From a bacterium (GTDB lineage Bacteria; SM23-31): DNA of 64,000 bases. The stretch covers positions 770,445 through 834,444 of the forward strand of contig OZ252239.1 of the NCBI GenBank assembly GCA_965249485.1. Direction: 5' to 3'. Below, in pieces: positions 17,165 to 55,225 of the stretch. How positions within the stretch are numbered: the stretch's first letter is position 1; each line of letters opens with the position of its first letter. The position numbers and the translations under genes are program-made. The notes under the pieces were generated by a model that did not search any database, was not told the origin of the DNA, and saw only the letters and a list, made by a program, of their open reading frames with translations.

Positions 17165-18301
17165 CTAATTAAACTGTTTATTAAAGATTGGCAGAATCTG
17201 CAGACCTTTCGGGTTGCTTGCAATGTAGTTCAGGAGACCGATCTGAAGGCCGTCAACGCTGTCGGCATAATTAAAAATACCAAGCGTTACACCGTTGACG
17301 AGTCCCTGAATATAATTAACCGCACTCACAGAAAACCCTTCCATAACACCATTGTATTCCGGATTGCGGATAGTAACAAACAAGACAGATGCGGCTGCCC
17401 CTTTGATATGCCTGCCGCTTCCGACACCGATACCAGCAGCGCTGAGACCGGAAAGTTTATTTCCGGCGCCGACGAATAATCCGCCAAGACTGATACCGGT
17501 AATATCGTTTCCGGCACCAACAAAGAATCCTGAGTTGGCAAAACCGAGGATGTCGTTGCCTGCTCCAGTTGCAAATCATGATATTGCAATGCCTGTTAAA
17601 TCGTTTCCGCTCCCGATAGCGAACCCGGCAGTACCGTATCCCTTAAAATCGTTACCACTTCCAGCCGCAAATCCGGCAAGTGCAATTCCCTGAAAATCGC
17701 TTCCGCTGCCGGCAGCAAATCCCGCTAGCGCGACTCCCTCAAATAATTTTCCGCTTCCAACAGCAAACGGGGAAATTCCTAAGCCTCTAAAATTATTGCC
17801 ACTCCCGGTCGCTAACAGTGCACTTGATATTCCCGTAAACTGTTCTTCGGCTCCGCTTGCCAGCAAACCAAGTCCGATTCCGGTAAACCGCTCAGGTTGT
17901 TCAAGACCGATAACATTCAGCATGAGTCCTGACACGTCCTGGCCGCGCGTTCCGACACCACCGACGGTTATTCCCTTGATAATTCCTGCGTCCGGTGCCC
18001 AGATTCCTATCGCACCGCCTTTAATAATTGCATCTTCATTTTTTTTCGGCTTCCAGAGTGTAATATTCAGACCGGTCATCCGTTCGAGGCCATTATCACG
18101 GTAGTTGATTCGGAGTCCCGTGAATCGCAGTGAATTGCCGAAGCTAACCCCTTTACCGTTTACACCGATATCGACACTCTGCGAAGAGTCCTGCTCCTGT
18201 GCGTTTAAATTATCAGAGAAGGTAATATAACTCAATATAAACAAAGCAAGAATTATTACTGGTCGATTCACGATTACGGCTCCAATTTGATTTTTGATCA
18301 A
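17165..18301 (-). pseudogene. Gly-rich 16-residue-repeat secreted/outer-membrane protein with a C-terminal GLQIGLLNY module; interrupted by in-frame TGA at 17576-17578
   Basis: ORFs 17576..18301 and 17165..17383 share a frame. Repeats G.(A/S)..GF.(A/V)G(S/A)GNDF.G continue across the stop, and the TGA occupies the conserved Gly position of the repeat (GGA to TGA). Confidence 0.6.
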
Positions 18302-18525: not shown

Positions 18526-20514
18526 TTACTTCGGCATTAAATATTTTCCCATCCATGCCTCTTCCTCCCGGTCGAGATGAAGCCGGTGGCGTGGTTCATC
18601 GACACCGTGGCCTTCACGCGGAAACCGAAGAAATTCTGTCGTTTTTCCCATTTTTTTCAGAAACCGGTAATACTGTTCTCCCTGAGTGATAGGAACGCGG
18701 CGATCTTCTTCACCGTGAACAACGAGGAGCGGAGTAGTAACGTTTTGAGCATATCGTGCTGCAGACATTCTGTCATAATTCTCCGGGTCATCCCACGGCT
18801 GGACACCGAACATATTGTCGAAATAGTGGAAAATGTCCGTCTGACCATAAAATGGAAAGAGATCGGCAATGGCGGCACTGCCAATCGCAGCTTTGAACCG
18901 GTTGGTTTGGCTGATTGCCCAGAAGGTCATATAACCGCCGTAGCTGCCACCCATGATCCCGAGCCGCTCCTGATCTGCAATACCCATCTCGATTATAGTA
19001 TCCACACCGTTCATCAAGTCGATGAAATCGTTCACACCCCAGTCATTATAAACACCTGCGCCATATTCAAAGGTATGGCCCGAACTGCCCCGCGGATTTG
19101 CACGGAGTACTGCGTATCCACGGGCCGCCCACTTTTGTGCTTCGGCCGTATAAGTATTGTAATAGGCACCATATGGCCCACCGTGCACATCGAGGATAAA
19201 AGGATACCGTTTCCGCTCTTTATAATCGATCGGATAGATAAGCATACCCTCGATATCCCAATCATTTGCCCCTTTCCAGTAGACAACTTCCTGACGTGAA
19301 ACTTCGTATGCTTCCATGTGGTTTGTCGGGCTAAGAATGTTTCTGGTCCGCCTGCCTCTCCTGTCGGTCAGGAAAACCTCGCCAGGTTCGGAAGCAGAGC
19401 TTCCCGTAAAGAGGATCGATATTCCGTCTTCAGACAGGGTGTAGGACCCGGTAACATACTCGTCACCCGAAATAACAAGTTCACGTTCGCCGCCATTCAC
19501 CGGGGAGCGGTAGATCTGCCGTGTCGGTGCCCGCTGGACAGAATAGTAAACGTAATCGTTGTCTTTAGACCACTGTACATTCGAAACCGAATAGTCAAGA
19601 TCGGCGGTCAGGTTGACCGGACTGCCGCCGCTAGCCGGAATGACCATTACCTGTTGCTGTATATACATGATGTTTTCGTGTAAACTTGCGGTATATGCGA
19701 TCCATTCTCCGTCCGGCGACCATGCAGGACTGCCGTCAGGTCCTGTGTTGAAAGTCAACTGCCGCACTTCACCGGAATCAGCGGAAACGATCCAGATGTT
19801 ACTGTTATCGCTATGATTGGGCAGGTTGGTACGTGTCCCGGTACGGTTTGAGCTGAATGCAATCCACTCTCCGTCCGGTGACCATGCGAGTCCATTATTG
19901 TTATAATCACCTTCTGTGATTTTCTTGCTCTCTTTTGCCTCGATATTATAGACCCAGATATGTGTGAACTGTTCATCCTGCTCCCAATAGTAACCGTCGT
20001 TTTTCAACACGACCTTCTTTTCCCACTCCTCTTTATCGGGACGTTCAGACTGTTTGGTATATGCGATTTTGGTATAATCGGGTGAGAAGACCCCGTTTGC
20101 CGGGGCGTCTTCATCGTTAAAAAATAGTTGCCCTTCACCGCCGCGGGTCGAAATGACATACACCTTTTCATCGCCGTCCCGTTCGGAGTTGAACAGGAGC
20201 CGCCCGTCCGGCAGCCACCGGGGGTTTTCCTCTCCGGCATCGGAGTAGGTGAGTTGCCATGTCTCGCCGCCACCCACCTCATAGAGCCATATGTGCGATG
20301 TAGATTCAAAATCCGACGTGTCGAGTGTTGTCTTCGTGAACGCAGTGAGCGATCCGTCGTGCGACAGAGCGTACCCGCCCCAGTTAGGCATCGTCAATTC
20401 CTCAAGCGCCGTCATTTTCTTCTTGCCCATCTCCTGAGCGGCCGTGCTGCTTGTCAGTATTGTAATGCAAAAAAGGCTCACAAGTACAATCAGATATTTA
20501 TTCATTCTCATCAT
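18526..20514 (-). CDS. S9-family serine peptidase (prolyl oligopeptidase/dipeptidyl-aminopeptidase-like) with an N-terminal beta-propeller
   Basis: 662 aa, signal peptide, WSPDGEWIAF-type propeller repeats. GGSYGGYMT nucleophile elbow and the catalytic D and H in the C-terminal alpha/beta-hydrolase domain. Confidence 0.9.
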   Translation of the reverse strand: MMRMNKYLIVLVSLFCITILTSSTAAQEMGKKKMTALEELTMPNWGGYALSHDGSLTAFTKTTLDTSDFESTSHIWLYEVGGGETWQLTYSDAGEENPRWLPDGRLLFNSERDGDEKVYVISTRGGEGQLFFNDEDAPANGVFSPDYTKIAYTKQSERPDKEEWEKKVVLKNDGYYWEQDEQFTHIWVYNIEAKESKKITEGDYNNNGLAWSPDGEWIAFSSNRTGTRTNLPNHSDNSNIWIVSADSGEVRQLTFNTGPDGSPAWSPDGEWIAYTASLHENIMYIQQQVMVIPASGGSPVNLTADLDYSVSNVQWSKDNDYVYYSVQRAPTRQIYRSPVNGGERELVISGDEYVTGSYTLSEDGISILFTGSSASEPGEVFLTDRRGRRTRNILSPTNHMEAYEVSRQEVVYWKGANDWDIEGMLIYPIDYKERKRYPFILDVHGGPYGAYYNTYTAEAQKWAARGYAVLRANPRGSSGHTFEYGAGVYNDWGVNDFIDLMNGVDTIIEMGIADQERLGIMGGSYGGYMTFWAISQTNRFKAAIGSAAIADLFPFYGQTDIFHYFDNMFGVQPWDDPENYDRMSAARYAQNVTTPLLVVHGEEDRRVPITQGEQYYRFLKKMGKTTEFLRFPREGHGVDEPRHRLHLDREEEAWMGKYLMPK

Positions 20515-20560
20515 TATTAATTCTTCCCATTTATAAAATTATTTATAGTTTGTACAACAC

Positions 20561-21742
20561 TTACGTCGTGTTTCGTAATCTATCAATATTTTCCAGAGCT
20601 AATTTTCCGGTTTCTCCATCTGAATCTAATGCAACAACTTTTTTATATTTTTTCAATGCTTCTTTAATTTTTCCTAATTTTTCTAATGCAATACTCCAAT
20701 TATAATAAGCTTTAACGTACTGTGGATCAAGCTCAATGGCTTTTATATATTTTTCAATGGTTTCATCATGCCTACCTAGATTACCCAGAGCAACACCCCA
20801 GTTATTATAGGCTTTGACATCCTGAGGATCAGTTTCAGTAACTTTTTTATATTTTTCAATTGCTTCATCATATCTACCTTGATTACCCAGTGTAACACCC
20901 CAATTATAAAGTGGTAAACAATAATTTGGATCCATATTCGCTGACATTTCAAACTGTTCAGTAGCCTTCGAAAGCACTCCTGCTTCAGATAACATTATAC
21001 CATAACTGTTTCGAATTGTAGGATGTGGATATAATGCAAGAGCAGTAGAATATTTTCCTTCTGCAATCGTAAATTGCTTTTCTGTCGCATGTTTGACCGC
21101 TTCATGCGCAAGTTGAAAAGCAAGTACTTGCTTTTCATTTTCTTTTTGGTCTAATTCACTTTTAAGTGTATCAATTTTTCTTTTGTAATCGTCAAGTTTT
21201 TCTAATTTATACACAGTAGGTTCTATACCATCAATCCACGTGCAGAGATCCTTTTCAAAAAGTTCTATCCAATGCTGTTCAGATTCATATGCACGGTATA
21301 GATAATTTTTTTCTATCTCTAATTTATTTCTGAACTCAAGCACTTGCTTTAATTGTTCGCCCGGATCTGCCATCATGTCGTCCGGTGTTTTTCGAAAATA
21401 AAACCATATATCTATTCCTGCCTTTTTCGCAACTTCATATTCCTCTTCAAATCCGGATGTGTATTTGCCTGATTTACTCGGTTTGGATCCCCATCTTTTC
21501 CATAACAGCATCACTGCTAAATCGCATGATTTTAAATCTTTATTTATGAGTTTTTGCGGCCTTCCCTTTCCCAATAGAGTATCTTCCCATCCGACAGGTT
21601 CCAATAGCAGGCTAATTGATTTTGCCTTAATATCATTAATTTTGTCTACAATGTTTCCGAATTGTTTTCGCTCGGGATTCAAATCGTTAGGAGATCCAAT
21701 GAAGATTCTTTTTCTTTCAAAATATATTGTTGATTTCGGCAT
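20561..21742 (-). CDS. DUF4062-like N-terminal domain, coiled-coil, and C-terminal TPR-repeat protein
   Basis: N-terminus IFIGSPNDLNPERKQF...SCDLAVMLLWKRWGS...SGFEEEYEVAKKAG resembles DUF4062 (vFiSS..DL..eR...cDi.v.ilg.rYG..tE.Ey.A). Central heptad coiled coil. Four or more TPR motifs (AYNNWGVALGNLGRHDETIEKYIKAIELDP...). Confidence 0.65.
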   Translation of the reverse strand: MPKSTIYFERKRIFIGSPNDLNPERKQFGNIVDKINDIKAKSISLLLEPVGWEDTLLGKGRPQKLINKDLKSCDLAVMLLWKRWGSKPSKSGKYTSGFEEEYEVAKKAGIDIWFYFRKTPDDMMADPGEQLKQVLEFRNKLEIEKNYLYRAYESEQHWIELFEKDLCTWIDGIEPTVYKLEKLDDYKRKIDTLKSELDQKENEKQVLAFQLAHEAVKHATEKQFTIAEGKYSTALALYPHPTIRNSYGIMLSEAGVLSKATEQFEMSANMDPNYCLPLYNWGVTLGNQGRYDEAIEKYKKVTETDPQDVKAYNNWGVALGNLGRHDETIEKYIKAIELDPQYVKAYYNWSIALEKLGKIKEALKKYKKVVALDSDGETGKLALENIDRLRNTT

Positions 21743-21794
21743 TTAAATTTTCCTTTGCCGTTGTGCAACCGGCATTTTTATAAGCAATATTGTG

Positions 21795-22035
21795 ATCTAC
21801 TAAAAACTATTTCAAATATATCTCCAACCAAGCAGCCTGTTCCTTATCATTGATAATCCTATGGAATGGTTCACGGATGCCCTGTCCTTCCAACGGAAAC
21901 CGGATAAATTTGACCGTTTTGCCGTGTTTTTCAAAGCTGTGTAGTACTCAATCGCCTGCGATACCGGCACAACAGGGTCGTCATCGCTGTTGATAATGAG
22001 CAGGGGAGTGGTCACGTTCGAAATAAGATTCACCG
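21795..22035 (-). pseudogene. Frameshifted C-terminal fragment of a second S9 peptidase paralogue
   Basis: VTTPLLIINSDDDPVVPVSQAIEYYTALKNTAK, then in another frame FIRFPLEGQGIREPFHRIINDKEQAAWLEIYLK*, matching the C-terminus of the intact S9 peptidase at 18526-18760. No upstream catalytic body. Confidence 0.6.
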
Positions 22036-22299
22036 GAGAATATTTATCTTACAAATTGAATGCACAAATATAATGAATAATAAAAGGTGAAACAACATTC
22101 ATAATACAAAAATATTTTATTCACCTTATCCTTACTTATTGGTAGTTTGGCGTGTGTGCATATTGGAAAAAGATTGGATAATTCTCCTCTGTACCCTCAC
22201 TTTAAAAAAAGTTTTTGCATTTATGCTTCTTTCTGATTACATTTTTTTTTCAAACCCACCCTTTGTAACGTAACCCGCCGTGAGCTTTGGAGGTAGATA

Positions 22300-23380
22300 A
22301 TGGCTTTGCAGAATTCAGAAGAACAAGCTGCAAAAACTGAAGAAAAAACTGCTCAGGATGTCCTGTATATAGGACTCGATCTTGGCACATCACAAAGTGC
22401 AGTAGCAACCAACACCGGAATTCTGGTTAACACTGCCAGTGTTGTTGGATGGCCAAAAGACCTGATATCTTACAAACTGCATCAGAAAGCAGTCCTGTTT
22501 GGTGACGAATGTGTACGAAACCGAATGTCGGTAGATGTTTTTTATCCGCTTGAGAAAGGTGTCATTTCCACATCGTCCAAGGGGAAAAAAACTGACGATT
22601 CCGAACGGAAAGATACTGCACCTGGTGAGTTTATTCGGCATATGATAACGCTTGCTGAACCGAATCAAAATCAGCAGAAATTTCTTGTTGTCGGTGTGCC
22701 TGCGGAAGCTTCTGTTGAGGATAAACAGGCCATTATCAATACCGCTGCTGGTCTGGTTGATTCTGTTCTTGTTGTTTCTCAGCCATTCCTCGTCGCGTAC
22801 GGTCTCGGTTTGTACGGTTTCTCACTTGTTGTCGATATCGGTGCCGGAACGACCGATATTTGCCGCATGCACGGAACAATACCTGAAGAATCCGATCAGA
22901 AAACCTCATTCAAAGCGGGTACTCACATCGATTCACTCCTATTTGATCTCCTCAGATCAAAATATCCGAAAGCCAACATCACAAAAATGATGGCGCAGCA
23001 TTTTAAAGAGAAATATGCGTTTGTCGGCAATATTAATGAACAGATTTCGGTTGAGCTCAACATTGGTGGAAAAAACAGGACACTACGATATTACAAAAGA
23101 AGTAAAAGATGCGTGTGAGAATATTGTACCTGACATTGTGGCGACGCTCAGGCACCTGGTATCAAGTTTCGATCCTGAATTTCAGGATGAGCTCAGAAAT
23201 AATGTGCTCTTTGCGGGATGCGGAAGCAGAATTCGCGGACTTTCTCAGTTGGTAGCATCAGAGCTTGCTGATCTTGGACCGATTAACACCCAAATCGTTG
23301 AAGACCCGGTTTATGCCGGCGCTTTCGGAGCGCTCCGGATTGGCCAGGACATGCCCCTCAGTGAATGGAAACATATGTAG
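22300..23380 (+). pseudogene. MamK-like actin-family ATPase (actin/MreB/ParM superfamily); frameshifted in an A6 run at 23070-23075
   Basis: YIGLDLGTSQSAV (phosphate-1), VVGVPAEAS, VDIGAGTTDI, FAGCGSRIRGL, and overall collinearity with MamK. ORF1 (22300..23118) and ORF2 (23015..23380) overlap in different frames. Deleting one A of GGAAAAAACAGG restores ...IGGKTGHYDITKEVK. Confidence 0.75.
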
Positions 23381-23462: not shown

Positions 23463-23666
23463 CTAACTCACTTCAAAAAACTGACTCTCATCACCGTCGG
23501 GGGAGATGTTGAGCGTTACTTTCTTAGCGCATTTCGGATACCAACCCACAAATGCATTGCGTTGTTTATTAAGGTAAATCCGGCTGTACACATTACAGCA
23601 CTTGAAATGGATACCAACAAATGGCCGGGATTCGGATTTTTCTTTGTTACTGTCGTGTTGTGTCAT
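23463..23666 (-). CDS. Small Cys-containing hypothetical protein, translationally coupled (ATGA overlap) to the macro-domain gene
   Basis: 67-aa ORF. Its ATG overlaps the TGA of the upstream gene (23663-23666). H21/C23/C24/C46 give a possible zinc site. No family recognised. Confidence 0.35.
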   Translation of the reverse strand: MTQHDSNKEKSESRPFVGIHFKCCNVYSRIYLNKQRNAFVGWYPKCAKKVTLNISPDGDESQFFEVS

Positions 23667-24193
23667 GCCGAAAAAGTCCTCCGCAGTTCGTTTTCGAACA
23701 CAGTAAAACTTTCATTTCCGAAAAGAACAAACCGGATCGTTTTAAGGTGTTTTGATTCGGTCAGAAATGTTATGGATTCATTGAGCATAATCTGAGCACA
23801 CAAATGTATCAGAAGTCCACCGACACCGGTACTTATTGCTGGGAAGGCAATCGATTCGAGTCGGTTCTCTTCAGCAAGCCGCAAGCTTGCCTTTGTAGTC
23901 TTCCGAACTTTTTCTTCGTCAGTCTTCAGGTCTTGACCCATACCAGCGGCATGGATAACATGTCGGGCAGTCAGCGTCCCCCCCGACGTGATAACAGCAC
24001 CGCCGACTTCGACCGGCCCCTGTTTGACCGCTTCAGTCTCGATTATCTGGCCGCCTTTTTTCTTGATCGCACCTGCAACTCCTGAACCCATCCAAAAATG
24101 GTTATTTGCAGCATTGACGACAGCATCGACATCCTGTTCTGTAATATCGCCTTCAACGACCTCAACCGATCCATGACCAATAGTTACTTTCAT
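23663..24193 (-). CDS. Macro-domain protein (O-acetyl-ADP-ribose deacetylase / ADP-ribose-binding, YmdB-like)
   Basis: VEVVEGDITEQDVDAVVNAANNHFWMGSGVAGAI...AFPAISTGVGG matches macro-domain motifs. Confidence 0.9.
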   Translation of the reverse strand: MKVTIGHGSVEVVEGDITEQDVDAVVNAANNHFWMGSGVAGAIKKKGGQIIETEAVKQGPVEVGGAVITSGGTLTARHVIHAAGMGQDLKTDEEKVRKTTKASLRLAEENRLESIAFPAISTGVGGLLIHLCAQIMLNESITFLTESKHLKTIRFVLFGNESFTVFENELRRTFSA

Positions 24194-30117: not shown

Positions 30118-30470
30118 ACCCGGAGCGTGGAAAGATGGCCGCGTTTCCCGATTATTTGGGAGATGAGGAAAGTCCGAACTCCACAGGGCAGGATGCCCCG
30201 TGAAAACGGGGTCGTTCCGGTTCACCGGAATGCAGGAAAGTGCCGCAGAAAATATACCGCCCCGTTCCTCGGAATGGGGTAAGGGTGAAAAGGCGAGGTA
30301 AGAGCTCACCGCGTTTTCGGTAACGGAAACGGCAGGGTAAACCCCATCCGGAGCGAGACCAAATAGAGGAGAAGAGGCTGCCCGTCTCATTTGACTCCCG
30401 GGTAGGTCGCATCAGATAAATGGCCATCCGCGACAGAATTCGGCTTACCGAGCGCTTCGGGTTTAGTATA
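30118..30470 (+). ncRNA. rnpB: RNase P RNA (bacterial type A)
   Basis: Conserved blocks GAGGAAAGTCCG, AGGGTGAAAAGG...GGTAAGAGCTCACC, GGTAAACCCCATCCGGAGC...CAAATAG, ACAGAATTCGGCTTAC, all in canonical order. No credible ORF across it. Confidence 0.85.
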
Positions 30471-49901: not shown

Positions 49902-50147
49902 TATGCCAATCCGGGATTGTGCAGAAAACTTTTAAATAATTGTAATGTTACTGATTGTTTAAAAATGCAATGCAGAGATTGCAACGTTGCAATTTCTGGG
50001 ACTAAATAATTAACGTATGTTCAAATCCCGCTTTTAGAAATTGCTGTACAAATAACTTGCTATTATAAACAGCAAATAGTATATTATAGTAATAATCGAC
50101 ACAAGGAAAGCACTATAAGAAAAATTTAATATAGATATAAAAAGAGC

Positions 50148-50222
50148 GCATTACGGGGTGGTTTTAGAAACCTGAGATTAAACCCTTTGAACCTGATCTG
50201 GGTAATTCCAGCGGAGGAAAAT
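50148..50222 (+). promoter_or_regulatory. TPP (thiamine pyrophosphate) riboswitch aptamer
   Basis: ACGGGGTGG...CTGAGA...ACCCTTTGAACCTGATCTGGGTAATTCCAGCGGAGGAAA matches THI-box conserved blocks (GGGGUGC, CUGAGA, ACCC..GAACCUGAUCUGGnUAAUACCAGCGnAGGGAA). Confidence 0.85.
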
Positions 50223-50249
50223 GCACATTGCACATTTTTTCAGGAATCG

Positions 50250-54389: not shown

Positions 54390-54765
54390 TATTAATCTTT
54401 TTCATTGTAAGGTTCGGTATCAGCGAAAAAAGGTGCCCCGTTTTAAACACTATGTGCAAATATGGACAGCCCGGTATGCATTATTACACATACCCGAATG
54501 TGATAATTAGTTATATTTGATTTGCGTAAGCATGAACTGGCTTCAATATAACCGATTGATTCATTGGGATGTAATACAATCGCAAAATAGATACCAGGAA
54601 ATTTCTCATGTTGTATCCCGGAAAAACTTTGCGATGGATAAACAATATTTTGTCATGTTGTTCGCAATACCGGGTGATTGTTGTAAACTTTTTTGATTGA
54701 TTTTTTTGAAAGAAATATTTATATTCTGTGTCTCTTAATATGTGCCTGAGCACTTCGGGGTGTAG

Positions 54766-54843
54766 CGCAGTCCGGTTAGCGCACCTGCTTTGGGAGCAGG
54801 GGGTCGGAGGTTCAAATCCTCTCACCCCGACCAGCGTTCACAG
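54766..54843 (+). tRNA. tRNA-Pro (anticodon TGG), CCA encoded
   Basis: Manual cloverleaf: acceptor CGGGGTG/CACCCCG, D-stem GCGC, anticodon stem CCTGC/GCAGG with loop TTTGGGA, T-arm GGAGG-TTCAAAT-CCTCT. Confidence 0.85.
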
Positions 54844-54893
54844 TCTGGATGAAATGAAAACCGCGCTCACGAATGCTAAGGGACTCGATGGAT

Positions 54894-54967
54894 GCGCCAG
54901 TAGCTCAACTGGACAGAGCAACGGCCTTCTAAGCCGTAGGTTGAAGGTTCGAGTCCTTCCTGGCGTA
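54894..54967 (+). tRNA. tRNA-Arg (anticodon TCT)
   Basis: Acceptor GCGCCAG/CTGGCGT, D-stem GCTC/GAGC, anticodon stem ACGGC/GCCGT with loop CTTCTAA, T-arm GAAGG-TTCGAGT-CCTTC. Confidence 0.85.
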
Positions 54968-55027
54968 CACTTTTAAACACGCCAAAGCACATTAAGGGGA
55001 ATGAGTTTCTGCCGAGTAAGATTTTAC

Positions 55028-55102
55028 GGTGGGAGTAGCTCAGTTGGTTAGAGCACTGGATTGTGGTTCCAGGGGTCGCGGGTTCGATTCCCGTCTTCCA
55101 CC
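55028..55102 (+). tRNA. tRNA-His (anticodon GTG) with G-1
   Basis: G-1 plus acceptor GTGGGAG/CTTCCAC, discriminator C, anticodon stem CTGGA/TCCAG with loop TTGTGGT, T-arm GCGGG-TTCGATT-CCCGT. Confidence 0.85.
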
Positions 55103-55147
55103 CTAAAGGCAGATCGGTCATCCCCACCCAACATACAAAGCTTACAT

Positions 55148-55219
55148 GTCCCCTTCGTCTAGTGGTTAGGACTCATGGTTTTCGACCATGCAACAGGGGT
55201 TCGACTCCCCTAGGGGACG
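55148..55219 (+). tRNA. tRNA-Glu (anticodon TTC)
   Basis: Acceptor GTCCCCT/AGGGGAC, anticodon stem CATGG/CCATG with loop TTTTCGA, T-arm AGGGG-TTCGACT-CCCCT. Confidence 0.85.
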
Positions 55220-55225
55220 CACAGG

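What the first reader, a model, noticed from the sequence alone, without database searches (positions are those of the whole stretch)
20561..22035. DUF4062-like / coiled-coil / TPR protein wedged between an S9 peptidase and the decayed 3' end of a second S9 paralogue
The N-terminal domain (IFIGSPNDL..ERK...SCDLAVMLLWKRWGS...GFEEEYEVAKKAG) resembles DUF4062, a TIR/SLOG-like domain frequent in STAND NTPase and TPR proteins of conflict or signalling systems. It is followed by a long coiled coil and 4+ TPRs, with no NTPase. Upstream sits a frameshifted C-terminal fragment of another S9 peptidase (21795-22035), suggesting gene replacement at this site. Candidate accessory signalling or defence-type gene.
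Basis: partly seen in the sequence, partly recalled or inferred. Interest (0 to 1): 0.55.

Follow-up and report, generated by a model that had tools for sequence, protein, structure and literature searches.

The report
Horizontally acquired DUF4062 NADase–TPR defence-type gene
A foreign, low-GC gene has landed next to the stump of a dead peptidase gene; it joins a TIR-like NAD+-cleaving domain (DUF4062/NIR, shown in 2026 to act in anti-phage immunity) to a TPR repeat array, so it is most likely a single-protein phage-defence sensor of a sensor type not yet tested.

Summary
ORF 20561-21742(-) encodes a 393-aa protein with three parts. The first is a DUF4062 domain (Pfam above threshold; five-stranded beta/alpha model, pLDDT 89). 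The second is a short helical stalk. The third is five 34-residue TPR units plus a cap. There is no NTPase. Upstream, 21807-22047(-) is a real remnant of a second S9 peptidase. It aligns with the 3' end of a full-length paralogue at the same site in a relative (L001), has a 1-nt deletion, and has lost the catalytic His.

The gene is accessory and foreign. It is absent from the orthologous site in two relatives (L001, about 77% aa identity; L008, about 90% nt identity), and its GC3 is 0.25 against 0.44-0.55 in its neighbours.

Three 2026 preprints show that DUF4062 ("NIR") is a TIR-like NADase effector of the Swarozyc, Evangelion, Avs2, Vulcan and Vesta systems. The residues needed in Eva01 (F11, E87-Y88) align with F14 and E101-Y102 here, which are invariant in 62 homologues.

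Best reading (0.6): a single-gene, abortive-infection-type defence protein. Its TPR array would sense a phage protein and release NAD+ hydrolysis. The closest analogue is Vulcan (NIR + HEAT). This is a new variant of a known kind, of moderate interest.

The parts
20561..21742 (-). Complete gene for the 393-aa DUF4062(NIR)-stalk-TPR protein (stop codon 20561-20563)
   Evidence: ORF. Pfam and PADLOC matches. The identical protein P0001 is on a 3.78-Mb NCBI/ENA contig. GC is 0.346 and GC3 0.249.
21218..21742 (-). Residues 1-175: DUF4062/NIR TIR-like domain. Strands at 9-16, 45-50, 75-80, 111-117 and 148-152; helices at 19-43, 63-71, 97-107, 121-125, 129-144 and 155-170.
   Evidence: PF13271 at 35.4 bits against a 24.7 cut-off. 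Domain-only model has pLDDT 89.2 and pTM 0.85. Foldseek hits to TIR, NDT and CMP hydrolase folds. There are 5283 representative clusters with E<=1e-3.
21437..21448 (-). Codons for E99-E100-E101-Y102. E101-Y102 is the predicted catalytic Glu-Tyr.
   Evidence: E99, E100 and E101 are invariant in 62 homologues. hhalign places E101-Y102 on Eva01 E87-Y88 and F14 on Eva01 F11. F11A and E87A abolish Eva01 defence.
21557..21592 (-). Residues 51-62 (GWEDTLLGKGRP): nearly invariant flexible loop between strand B and helix B, a 'BB loop' candidate for regulation.
   Evidence: W52, E53 and G58 are invariant. G51, D54, T55, G60, R61 and P62 are at least 90% conserved; position 57 is Pro in at least 90% of homologues but Leu here. 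pLDDT is below 50 at 54-58. In KpSwz the BB loop occludes the active site. The equivalence is inferred.
21125..21196 (-). Residues 183-206: helical stalk with a/d-type hydrophobic spacing (L183, Y186, I190, L193, L197). A possible dimerisation element.
   Evidence: Helix 183-220 in the model, preceded by a low-confidence linker at 171-182. The family consensus I..L..EL is conserved. The analogy with the KpSwz helical stalks is inferred.
20564..21124 (-). Residues 207-393: five 34-residue TPR units (207, 241, 275, 309, 343; the last three canonical) plus a C-terminal capping helix. Predicted sensor.
   Evidence: Pfam TPR_1/TPR_2/TPR_11. Register. Foldseek top hits are consensus TPR designs, OGT and MamA. 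DNA repeats at 102-nt spacing.
21807..22047 (-). Pseudogene remnant of a second S9 peptidase (S9b): the last ~78 codons with their stop codon. It has a 1-nt deletion near 21936 and a catalytic His-to-Gln change.
   Evidence: It is 73% DNA identity over 248 nt to L001 10345-10592. Pfam Peptidase_S9 gives 23.0 bits against a 22.6 cut-off. GC is 0.466, like native genes.
22048..22050 (.). Deletion junction. Homology with L008 and with the L001 upstream spacer ends here, and S9b codons begin.
   Evidence: About 1.7 kb present in L001 (8659-10345) is missing here.
20511..21806 (-). Segment with no counterpart in either relative (foreign insert). It contains 65 nt of leader, the DUF4062-TPR gene, and 50 nt that now form the upstream region of the intact S9 gene.
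   Evidence: Window 22050->20510 corresponds to only 116 unrelated nt in L008. L001 has 302 nt here. No terminal repeats, tRNA or integrase were found.
18526..20514 (-). Intact S9 peptidase (S9a), the native downstream neighbour. It is context, not part of the system.
   Evidence: Peptidase_S9 at 187 bits plus PD40 repeats. It is 77% identical to L001.

Best explanation
The gene encodes a single-protein, abortive-infection-type anti-phage sensor-effector of the DUF4062/NIR family, acquired by horizontal transfer.

Shown here:
- The protein has a TIR-like DUF4062 domain carrying the family's essential Phe (F14) and Glu-Tyr (E101-Y102).
- A short helical stalk follows, and then a TPR array. There is no NTPase.
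- The gene is compositionally foreign.
- It is absent from the same site in two related genomes.

Inferred mechanism:
- In uninfected cells the protein is held inactive, probably as a stalk-mediated dimer with the conserved BB loop (residues 51-62) blocking the pocket, as in KpSwz.
- The TPR array binds a phage protein or peptide.
- Binding clusters or rearranges the NIR domains.
- NAD+ depletion arrests the infected cell and stops phage spread.
For: Domain identity:
- PF13271 is above its cut-off.
- PADLOC PDC-S60 matches at E 3.3e-20 over residues 12-206.
- The confident models show five beta-alpha units.
- Foldseek neighbours are TIR domains, the CMP N-glycosidase BcmB, viral deoxyribosyltransferases (E 1.3e-7, TMq 0.67) and the CAP12/Pycsar TIR.

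Catalytic residues:
- E99, E100, E101 and F14 are invariant in 62 homologues.
- hhalign to Eva01 (probability 85.7%, E 5.4e-6) puts F14 on F11 and E101-Y102 on E87-Y88. The Eva01 numbering was checked on pMW2.

Known function of the domain:
- KpSwz E97, PsAvs2 E108, Vulcan E98 and VstA E103 are each needed for defence and NAD+ depletion.
- Purified KpSwz cleaves NAD+ in vitro.
- Eva01 F11A and E87A lose defence.
- NIR genes are enriched next to defence genes, 20% against 3.9% expected.

Modularity:
- The same 170-residue module (40-62% identity) is fused to TPR, HEAT, STAND+TPR, TIR and other domains.
- HEAT-fused relatives sit inside Mu-like prophage contigs.

Accessory status:
- The gene is absent in L001 and L008 at the orthologous site.
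- GC3 is 0.249 against 0.44-0.55 in neighbouring genes.
- Homologues are solitary genes with no conserved partner.
Against: - No NIR protein with a TPR sensor and no NTPase has been tested in the three preprints, as far as their text shows.
- The window locus is not a defence island. None of the ten neighbouring proteins scanned matches a defence system, apart from a generic macro-domain hit to the DarG model (E 2.2e-9).
- The five homologue contexts examined are also mostly housekeeping genes.
- The fold matches to solved structures are weak (TM 0.4-0.55) and mixed with GTPases and flavodoxins.
- The Q/W/E motif of Evangelion aligns only approximately.
- Oligomeric state, trigger and substrate could not be tested.
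Confidence: 0.6

Rival explanations
1. The protein is a real enzyme of the TIR/NDT superfamily but with different chemistry. It could be a nucleotide or nucleoside N-glycosidase (like CMP hydrolase), or a producer of a signalling nucleotide, rather than a plain NAD+ hydrolase. It could still act in defence.
For: The best structural neighbours include deoxyribosyltransferases, CMP/hmCMP hydrolase and BcmB. The Avs2 effector was first annotated as a CMP hydrolase. Eva01 activation also perturbs other adenine metabolites.
Against: [quoted passage not shown] The catalytic Glu-Tyr context is shared with those proteins.
Confidence: 0.15
2. The protein is not immune. It would be a cellular regulatory or stress protein in which the TPR array binds a host partner and the DUF4062 domain adjusts NAD+/ADP-ribose levels or merely scaffolds. 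This would resemble the eukaryotic DUF4062 proteins TEP1 and NPHP3, which are not classical immune proteins.
For: The locus and the five homologue loci examined are surrounded by housekeeping genes. One homologue is kept at the same site in two contigs that are 98.5-99.8% identical. Eukaryotic members act in vault/telomerase particles.
Against: - The gene is present or absent between close relatives at one site.
- Its base composition is foreign.
- Its distribution across Bacteria and Archaea is patchy.
- The same module is fused to bona fide immune TIR domains, with ThsB/SAVED-TIR matches.
- Relatives lie in prophages.
Confidence: 0.2
3. The gene is an inert passenger or is decaying, like the S9 remnant and the split actin-like gene beside it.
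For: It lies in a stretch with two damaged genes.
Against: The reading frame is intact over 393 codons. All 21 invariant family positions are kept and the model is confident throughout.
Confidence: 0.05

Closest known systems
Vulcan (single protein, N-terminal NIR/DUF4062 + C-terminal HEAT repeats; Le Mouellic et al. 2026, bioRxiv 10.64898/2026.09.04.749371)
   Same: Both are single-gene systems in which a NIR domain is fused directly to an alpha-solenoid repeat array, with no NTPase in between. The catalytic Glu lies near residue 100 in both. DUF4062-HEAT proteins of about 810 aa share 44-53% identity with this N-terminal module.
   Different: The repeat array here is TPR, not HEAT, and much shorter (about 190 against about 600 residues). 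The trigger is unknown. I did not have the Vulcan sequence itself, so clade membership is untested.
Swarozyc (KpSwz) and Evangelion (Eva01): DUF4062 + auxiliary domain (bioRxiv 10.64898/2026.05.01.722283 and 10.64898/2026.06.25.731849)
   Same: The DUF4062 core is shared. F14 and E101-Y102 align with the essential F11 and E87-Y88 of Eva01. A helix follows the core, like the KpSwz stalk. Both are single genes spread by horizontal transfer.
   Different: The auxiliary domains are unrelated: HTH/winged-helix-like in KpSwz and a small AUX in Eva01, against TPR here. Similarity to Eva01 is detectable only by profile comparison and covers residues 12-147 only.
Avs2-type and other NLR-like NIR proteins (NIR-STAND NTPase-TPR)
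   Same: The order is the same, with the effector at the N-terminus and the TPR sensor at the C-terminus. A relative with nSTAND5 + TPR (P0137) carries the same N-terminal module at 55% identity.
   Different: There is no STAND NTPase here. Only about 50 residues (linker plus helix) separate NIR from TPR.
PADLOC candidate system PDC-S60
   Same: The N-terminal 200 profile positions match at E 3.3e-20.
   Different: Positions 206-906 of the profile are not matched, here or in any relative tested. Only the effector module is shared.
Canonical TIR NADases (SARM1, ThsB, TIR-APAZ) and nucleoside 2-deoxyribosyltransferases
   Same: All have a flavodoxin-like five-stranded fold with a catalytic Glu. 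Foldseek finds TIR and NDT proteins among the top hits.
   Different: There is no sequence-level match to the Pfam TIR families. The preprints place DUF4062 as a separate family.

Membership tests
DUF4062 / NIR TIR-like NADase domain (PF13271) | Match to the family profile above the curated threshold | tested here: met
   35.4 bits against a 24.7 cut-off, residues 12-105 covering profile positions 1-82/82
DUF4062 / NIR TIR-like NADase domain (PF13271) | Five-stranded parallel beta-sheet in a repeating beta-alpha topology (KpSwz cryo-EM description) | tested here: met
   AlphaFold models show five strands alternating with helices, six helices in all counting the short 121-125 one. pLDDT is 89 and pTM 0.85. 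This is a prediction, not an experiment.
DUF4062 / NIR TIR-like NADase domain (PF13271) | Structural neighbours are TIR and NDT/CMP-hydrolase folds | tested here: met
DUF4062 / NIR TIR-like NADase domain (PF13271) | Catalytic Glu (Glu-Tyr) after an acidic/S-Y-T stretch | tested here: met
   Y94-T95-S96-G97-F98-E99-E100-E101-Y102. The three Glu are invariant. E101-Y102 aligns with Eva01 E87-Y88.
DUF4062 / NIR TIR-like NADase domain (PF13271) | N-terminal aromatic residue (Eva01 F11) | tested here: met
   F14 is invariant and aligned with F11
DUF4062 / NIR TIR-like NADase domain (PF13271) | Q/W/E motif | tested here: inconclusive
   hhalign puts P62-Q63-K64 opposite Eva01 Q50-W51-E52. Q63 is invariant, and W52-E53 are invariant but lie 10 residues earlier.
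DUF4062 / NIR TIR-like NADase domain (PF13271) | NAD+ hydrolysis to ADP-ribose and nicotinamide | not testable with these tools
   Needs enzyme assays
Vulcan | C-terminal HEAT repeats fused directly to NIR | tested here: not met
   The C-terminus is TPR. Direct fusion without an NTPase is met.
Avs / NLR-like NIR proteins | Central STAND NTPase | tested here: not met
   No NTPase family in Pfam or NCBIfam. I see no Walker A motif in the sequence. Only one helix lies between NIR and TPR.
Swarozyc / Evangelion | Family-specific auxiliary (AUX) domain required for sensing | tested here: not met
   hhalign similarity to Eva01 stops at residue 147 of the query. The C-terminus is TPR.
PADLOC PDC-S60 | Full-length match to the 906-position profile | tested here: not met
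   Only profile positions 6-205 match
Anti-phage defence system (general) | Location in a defence island or next to known defence genes | tested here: not met
   The ten neighbours scanned give no PADLOC system hits apart from a generic macro-domain match to the DarG model (E 2.2e-9). Homologue contexts are mostly housekeeping genes.
Anti-phage defence system (general) | Accessory, horizontally moving gene | tested here: met
   Absent at the orthologous site in L001 and L008. GC3 is 0.249.
Magnetosome protein MamA | NCBIfam equivalog score and a magnetosome gene context | tested here: not met
   72 bits against a cut-off of 200. The adjacent actin-like gene is also present in relatives that lack this gene.
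S9 prolyl-oligopeptidase family (for the remnant 21807-22047) | Complete catalytic domain with the Ser-Asp-His triad | tested here: not met
   Only the last ~78 codons remain, with a frameshift and His replaced by Gln

The most novel reading that the evidence does not exclude
NIR-TPR proteins could be a widespread, untested class of minimal, NTPase-free immune sensors in environmental Bacteria and Archaea. In these proteins a portable cassette of about 175 residues (NIR plus stalk) would be re-armed by swapping sensor arrays. Partners seen here are TPR_1-type (this gene), TPR_12-type with copy-number variation, HEAT, TIR, S-layer and beta-propeller domains. Ligand binding by a short TPR array alone would be enough to switch on an NADase.
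Probability: 0.4. Interest if true: 0.5.

Novelty: new variant of a known kind. Interest (0 to 1): 0.38.

Why it matters
DUF4062 has only just been recognised as an NADase shared by bacterial immunity and the human protein TEP1. The tested bacterial systems use HEAT, STAND-TPR or small auxiliary sensors, mostly from enterobacteria, pseudomonads and staphylococci.

This locus shows the same effector joined directly to a short TPR array in an uncultured environmental bacterium. It is caught as a recent insertion at a site that differs in all three related genomes.

Hundreds of similar proteins are annotated only as 'tetratricopeptide repeat protein'. If NIR-TPR proteins defend, they should be re-annotated. 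They would also offer a small, tractable model for how a repeat sensor switches on a TIR-like NADase without an NTPase.

Tried and rejected
- Magnetosome reading (MamA-like TPR next to an actin-like, MamK-like gene). Rejected: MamA scores 72 bits against a cut-off of 200. The actin-like gene is also present, at the same place, in relatives without the TPR gene.
- Functional link with the macro-domain gene 23663-24193 (ADP-ribose handling). Rejected as a co-acquired pair, because the macro gene is syntenic in L001 and L008, which lack the NADase gene.
- Mobile-element scars. No terminal direct or inverted repeats, tRNA or integrase were found at the insert. The 116-nt spacer of L008 matches nothing above shuffled controls, so the exact mechanism of insertion is unknown.
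- Sequence search of the PDB with residues 1-219 found nothing meaningful.
- Exact-sequence look-ups of three window proteins and of P0086 found no record.
- tblastn against phage genomes found no match.
- A literature search for PDC-S60 found nothing.
- Rfam found no RNA family in the region.
- An HMM of the N-terminal module found no second copy in the window, L001, L002 or L008.
Full report
**What is there.** The minus-strand ORF 20561-21742 encodes 393 residues. An AAGGAAAA motif sits just before its ATG.
- Pfam assigns residues 12-105 to DUF4062 (PF13271; E 1.3e-8; 35.4 bits against a cut-off of 24.7). It assigns the C-terminal third to TPR_1/TPR_2/TPR_11 (E about 1e-22).
- PADLOC's candidate family PDC-S60 matches residues 12-206 (E 3.3e-20), but only over positions 6-205 of its 906-position profile.
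- NCBIfam gives only sub-threshold TPR families; MamA scores 72 bits against a cut-off of 200.
- No NTPase family matches, and I see no Walker A motif in the sequence.

**Structure.** An AlphaFold model built on 62 homologues is confident (mean pLDDT 89.7).
- Five beta-alpha units span 9-170, followed by a disordered linker at 171-182.
- One helix runs 183-220, and helix pairs continue to residue 392.
- In 34-residue register there are five TPR units at 207-376. The last three are canonical. A capping helix follows.
- The full model matches consensus TPR designs, the OGT TPR domain and MamA.
- The domain-only model (pLDDT 89.2, pTM 0.85) finds plant TIR domains, SfSTING-TIR and the CMP N-glycosidase BcmB among solved structures. 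These hits are weak (TM 0.4-0.55) and mixed with GTPases and flavodoxins.
- Among viral models its best hits are deoxyribosyltransferases (E 1.3e-7, TMq 0.67), a CAP12/Pycsar TIR protein and a CMP hydrolase.
- The fold is thus TIR/NDT-like, as the preprints describe for DUF4062.

**The neighbouring S9 remnant.** The stretch 21807-22047(-) reads DKYSPVNLISNVTTPLLIINSDDDPVVPVSQAIEYYTA. After a 1-nt deletion near 21936 it continues as GKTVKFIRFPLEGQGIREPFHRIINDKEQAAWLEIYLK*.
- In the related genome L001 (OZ251221.1; neighbouring proteins 62-90% identical) a full-length second S9 gene, S9b, lies between the actin-like gene and the intact S9a. There it is read in three frames.
- The window's remnant is 73% identical in DNA to its last 248 nt.
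- The catalytic His is kept in L001 (RERHG) and in S9a (EGHG), but is Gln in the remnant.
- The remnant's GC (0.466) is like that of native genes.

**The gene is accessory and foreign.**
- Relative to L001, about 1.7 kb of S9b is missing from the window. The spacer between the S9b stop and the S9a start is replaced by 1.3 kb carrying the DUF4062-TPR gene.
- In L008, a contig about 90% identical in DNA, homology runs up to window 22050 and resumes at 20510. Only 116 unrelated nucleotides lie between, so L008 has neither the remnant nor the gene.
- The site therefore has three different states in three relatives.
- The gene's GC is 0.346 and its GC3 0.249. This compares with GC3 of 0.554 (S9a), 0.52 (M20 peptidase) and 0.435 (macro gene).
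- No repeats, tRNA or integrase mark the insert.
- An HMM of the N-terminal module finds no other copy in the window or in the related loci.
- The organism is an uncultured bacterium. The best named S9a relatives are from candidate division KSB1 and Longimicrobiales, at about 54% identity.

**The family.**
- The whole protein has 739 hits. Most of the full-length hits are DUF4062-TPR proteins of 330-650 residues, 31-44% identical, from metagenomes of Bacteria and Archaea. They are named, if at all, 'tetratricopeptide repeat protein'.
- The N-terminal 185 residues alone find 5283 representative clusters at E<=1e-3 and 214 at E<=1e-30.
- The module (40-62% identical) is fused to TPR, HEAT (about 810 aa), nSTAND5+TPR, TIR, an S-layer domain and Sortilin/BNR-like repeats, or stands alone. 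All of these share only the first ~200 positions of PDC-S60.
- In the 62-sequence alignment, 21 positions are invariant: F14, P18, D20, E24, R25, W52, E53, G58, Q63, I66, W84, G85, G97, E99, E100, E101, F116, D126, V134, F137 and W169.
- The N-terminal module is far better conserved (36-63% identity to the query) than the whole proteins (31-53%).
- This protein's TPR units are of the 34-residue TPR_1/2/11 type. Most relatives carry 40-42-residue TPR_12/TPR_10 units. Two nearly identical contigs differ by exactly one 40-residue unit.
- Five homologue loci show solitary genes among housekeeping genes, with no conserved partner.
- Two HEAT-fused relatives lie between head genes of Mu-like prophage contigs.

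**What is known about the domain.** Three 2026 preprints establish DUF4062 as a TIR-like NADase.
- Osinski et al. (10.64898/2026.05.01.722283) show that Swarozyc (KpSwz) depletes NAD+ and needs E97. It forms stalk-linked dimers whose BB loops block the active site, and it is switched on by a phage portal protein.
- Ibarra-Chavez et al. (10.64898/2026.06.25.731849) describe Evangelion. F11A, E87A and W162A abolish its defence.
- Le Mouellic et al. (10.64898/2026.09.04.749371) rename the domain NIR. They show it as the effector of an Avs2 protein (E108), of Vulcan (NIR + HEAT, E98) and of Vesta (E103). They report that NIR genes lie near defence genes in 20% of cases, against 3.9% expected.
- I fetched Eva01 from pMW2 (NC_005011.1, 3863-4837) and checked its numbering. 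Profile comparison with the alignment gives probability 85.7% and E 5.4e-6. It places F14 on F11 and E101-Y102 on E87-Y88.
- None of the three texts mentions a TPR fusion without an NTPase. Their figures could not be read.

**Interpretation.**
- The domain assignment and the presence of the catalytic residues are shown.
- NADase activity, stalk dimerisation, BB-loop autoinhibition, sensing through the TPR array and a defence role are inferred from the characterised relatives.
- The closest of those is Vulcan, in which a solenoid repeat array is likewise fused directly to NIR.
- The main reservations are that the locus is not a defence island, that the sampled homologue contexts are housekeeping, and that no NIR-TPR protein has been tested.
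- I put the defence-NADase reading at 0.6, a non-immune regulatory role at 0.2, different chemistry at 0.15 and an inert gene at 0.05.

**Verdict.** This is a new architectural variant of a family whose function became known in 2026. It is of moderate interest, mainly as a compact, testable NIR-TPR sensor and as a clear case of recent gain at a variable site.

Noticed in passing
window 22300-23380 (+): The actin/MreB-like gene is split into two overlapping frames (272 + 121 aa). The frame switch is near 23073, inside an A6 run (23070-23075). The orthologue is intact (389 aa) in L001 and also split in the low-coverage contig L008. It could be a homopolymer sequencing error or a real pseudogene.
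   Followed up: partly
window 23463-24193 (-): A macro-domain protein (176 aa; PF01661, 109 bits; weak DarG-model hit) overlaps a 67-aa Cys-containing ORF with no Pfam match. The pair is conserved in L001 and L008, so it was not acquired with the NADase gene, although it would handle ADP-ribose.
   Followed up: partly
window 17576-18301 (-): A 241-aa ORF carries Gly-rich repeats of the form AGSGxxFxG(I/Y)A. It has no Pfam family and is 51% identical to an ORF in L001.
   Followed up: no
proteins P0071, P0074, P0086, P0095, P0103, P0109, P0110: The same DUF4062 module is fused to a canonical TIR domain (PADLOC ThsB/SAVED-TIR matches). These proteins therefore carry two TIR-type effector domains.
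   Followed up: partly
proteins P0116, P0118, P0127 (Methanoperedens and relatives): The DUF4062 module is fused to an archaeal S-layer protein domain (PF07752, 179 bits). This is an odd pairing of a presumed cytoplasmic NADase with a cell-surface domain.
   Followed up: no
L013 5971-8430 and L014 5911-8412 (IMG/VR contigs): DUF4062-HEAT-like proteins of about 820-830 aa are present on viral contigs. In L014 the gene lies between genes that look like Mu-like head genes, judged by eye from the translations rather than by a profile search.
   Followed up: partly
L005 8001-9785 versus L010 9001-10665: Two DUF4062-TPR genes in contigs 98.5-99.8% identical differ only by one 40-residue TPR unit. 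This is either repeat copy-number variation or assembly collapse.
   Followed up: yes
L001 8916-10592: The full-length second S9 paralogue of the relative is itself read in three frames. It may have been decaying before the deletion seen in the window, or the assembly has indel errors.
   Followed up: partly
window 30121-30463, 50143-50236, 54756-55220 (+): Bacterial RNase P RNA class A (241 bits), a TPP riboswitch (65.6 bits) and a cluster of tRNA-Pro, -Arg, -His and -Glu genes.
   Followed up: no
window 20699-20726 (-): A promoter-like site (TCCACA-16-TATAAT, 10 of 12 matches) lies inside the 3' end of the TPR gene. The 50 nt upstream of the intact S9 gene come from the insert, so S9a expression may now depend on the foreign DNA. 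The number of such sites in the region is no higher than in shuffled sequence.
   Followed up: no
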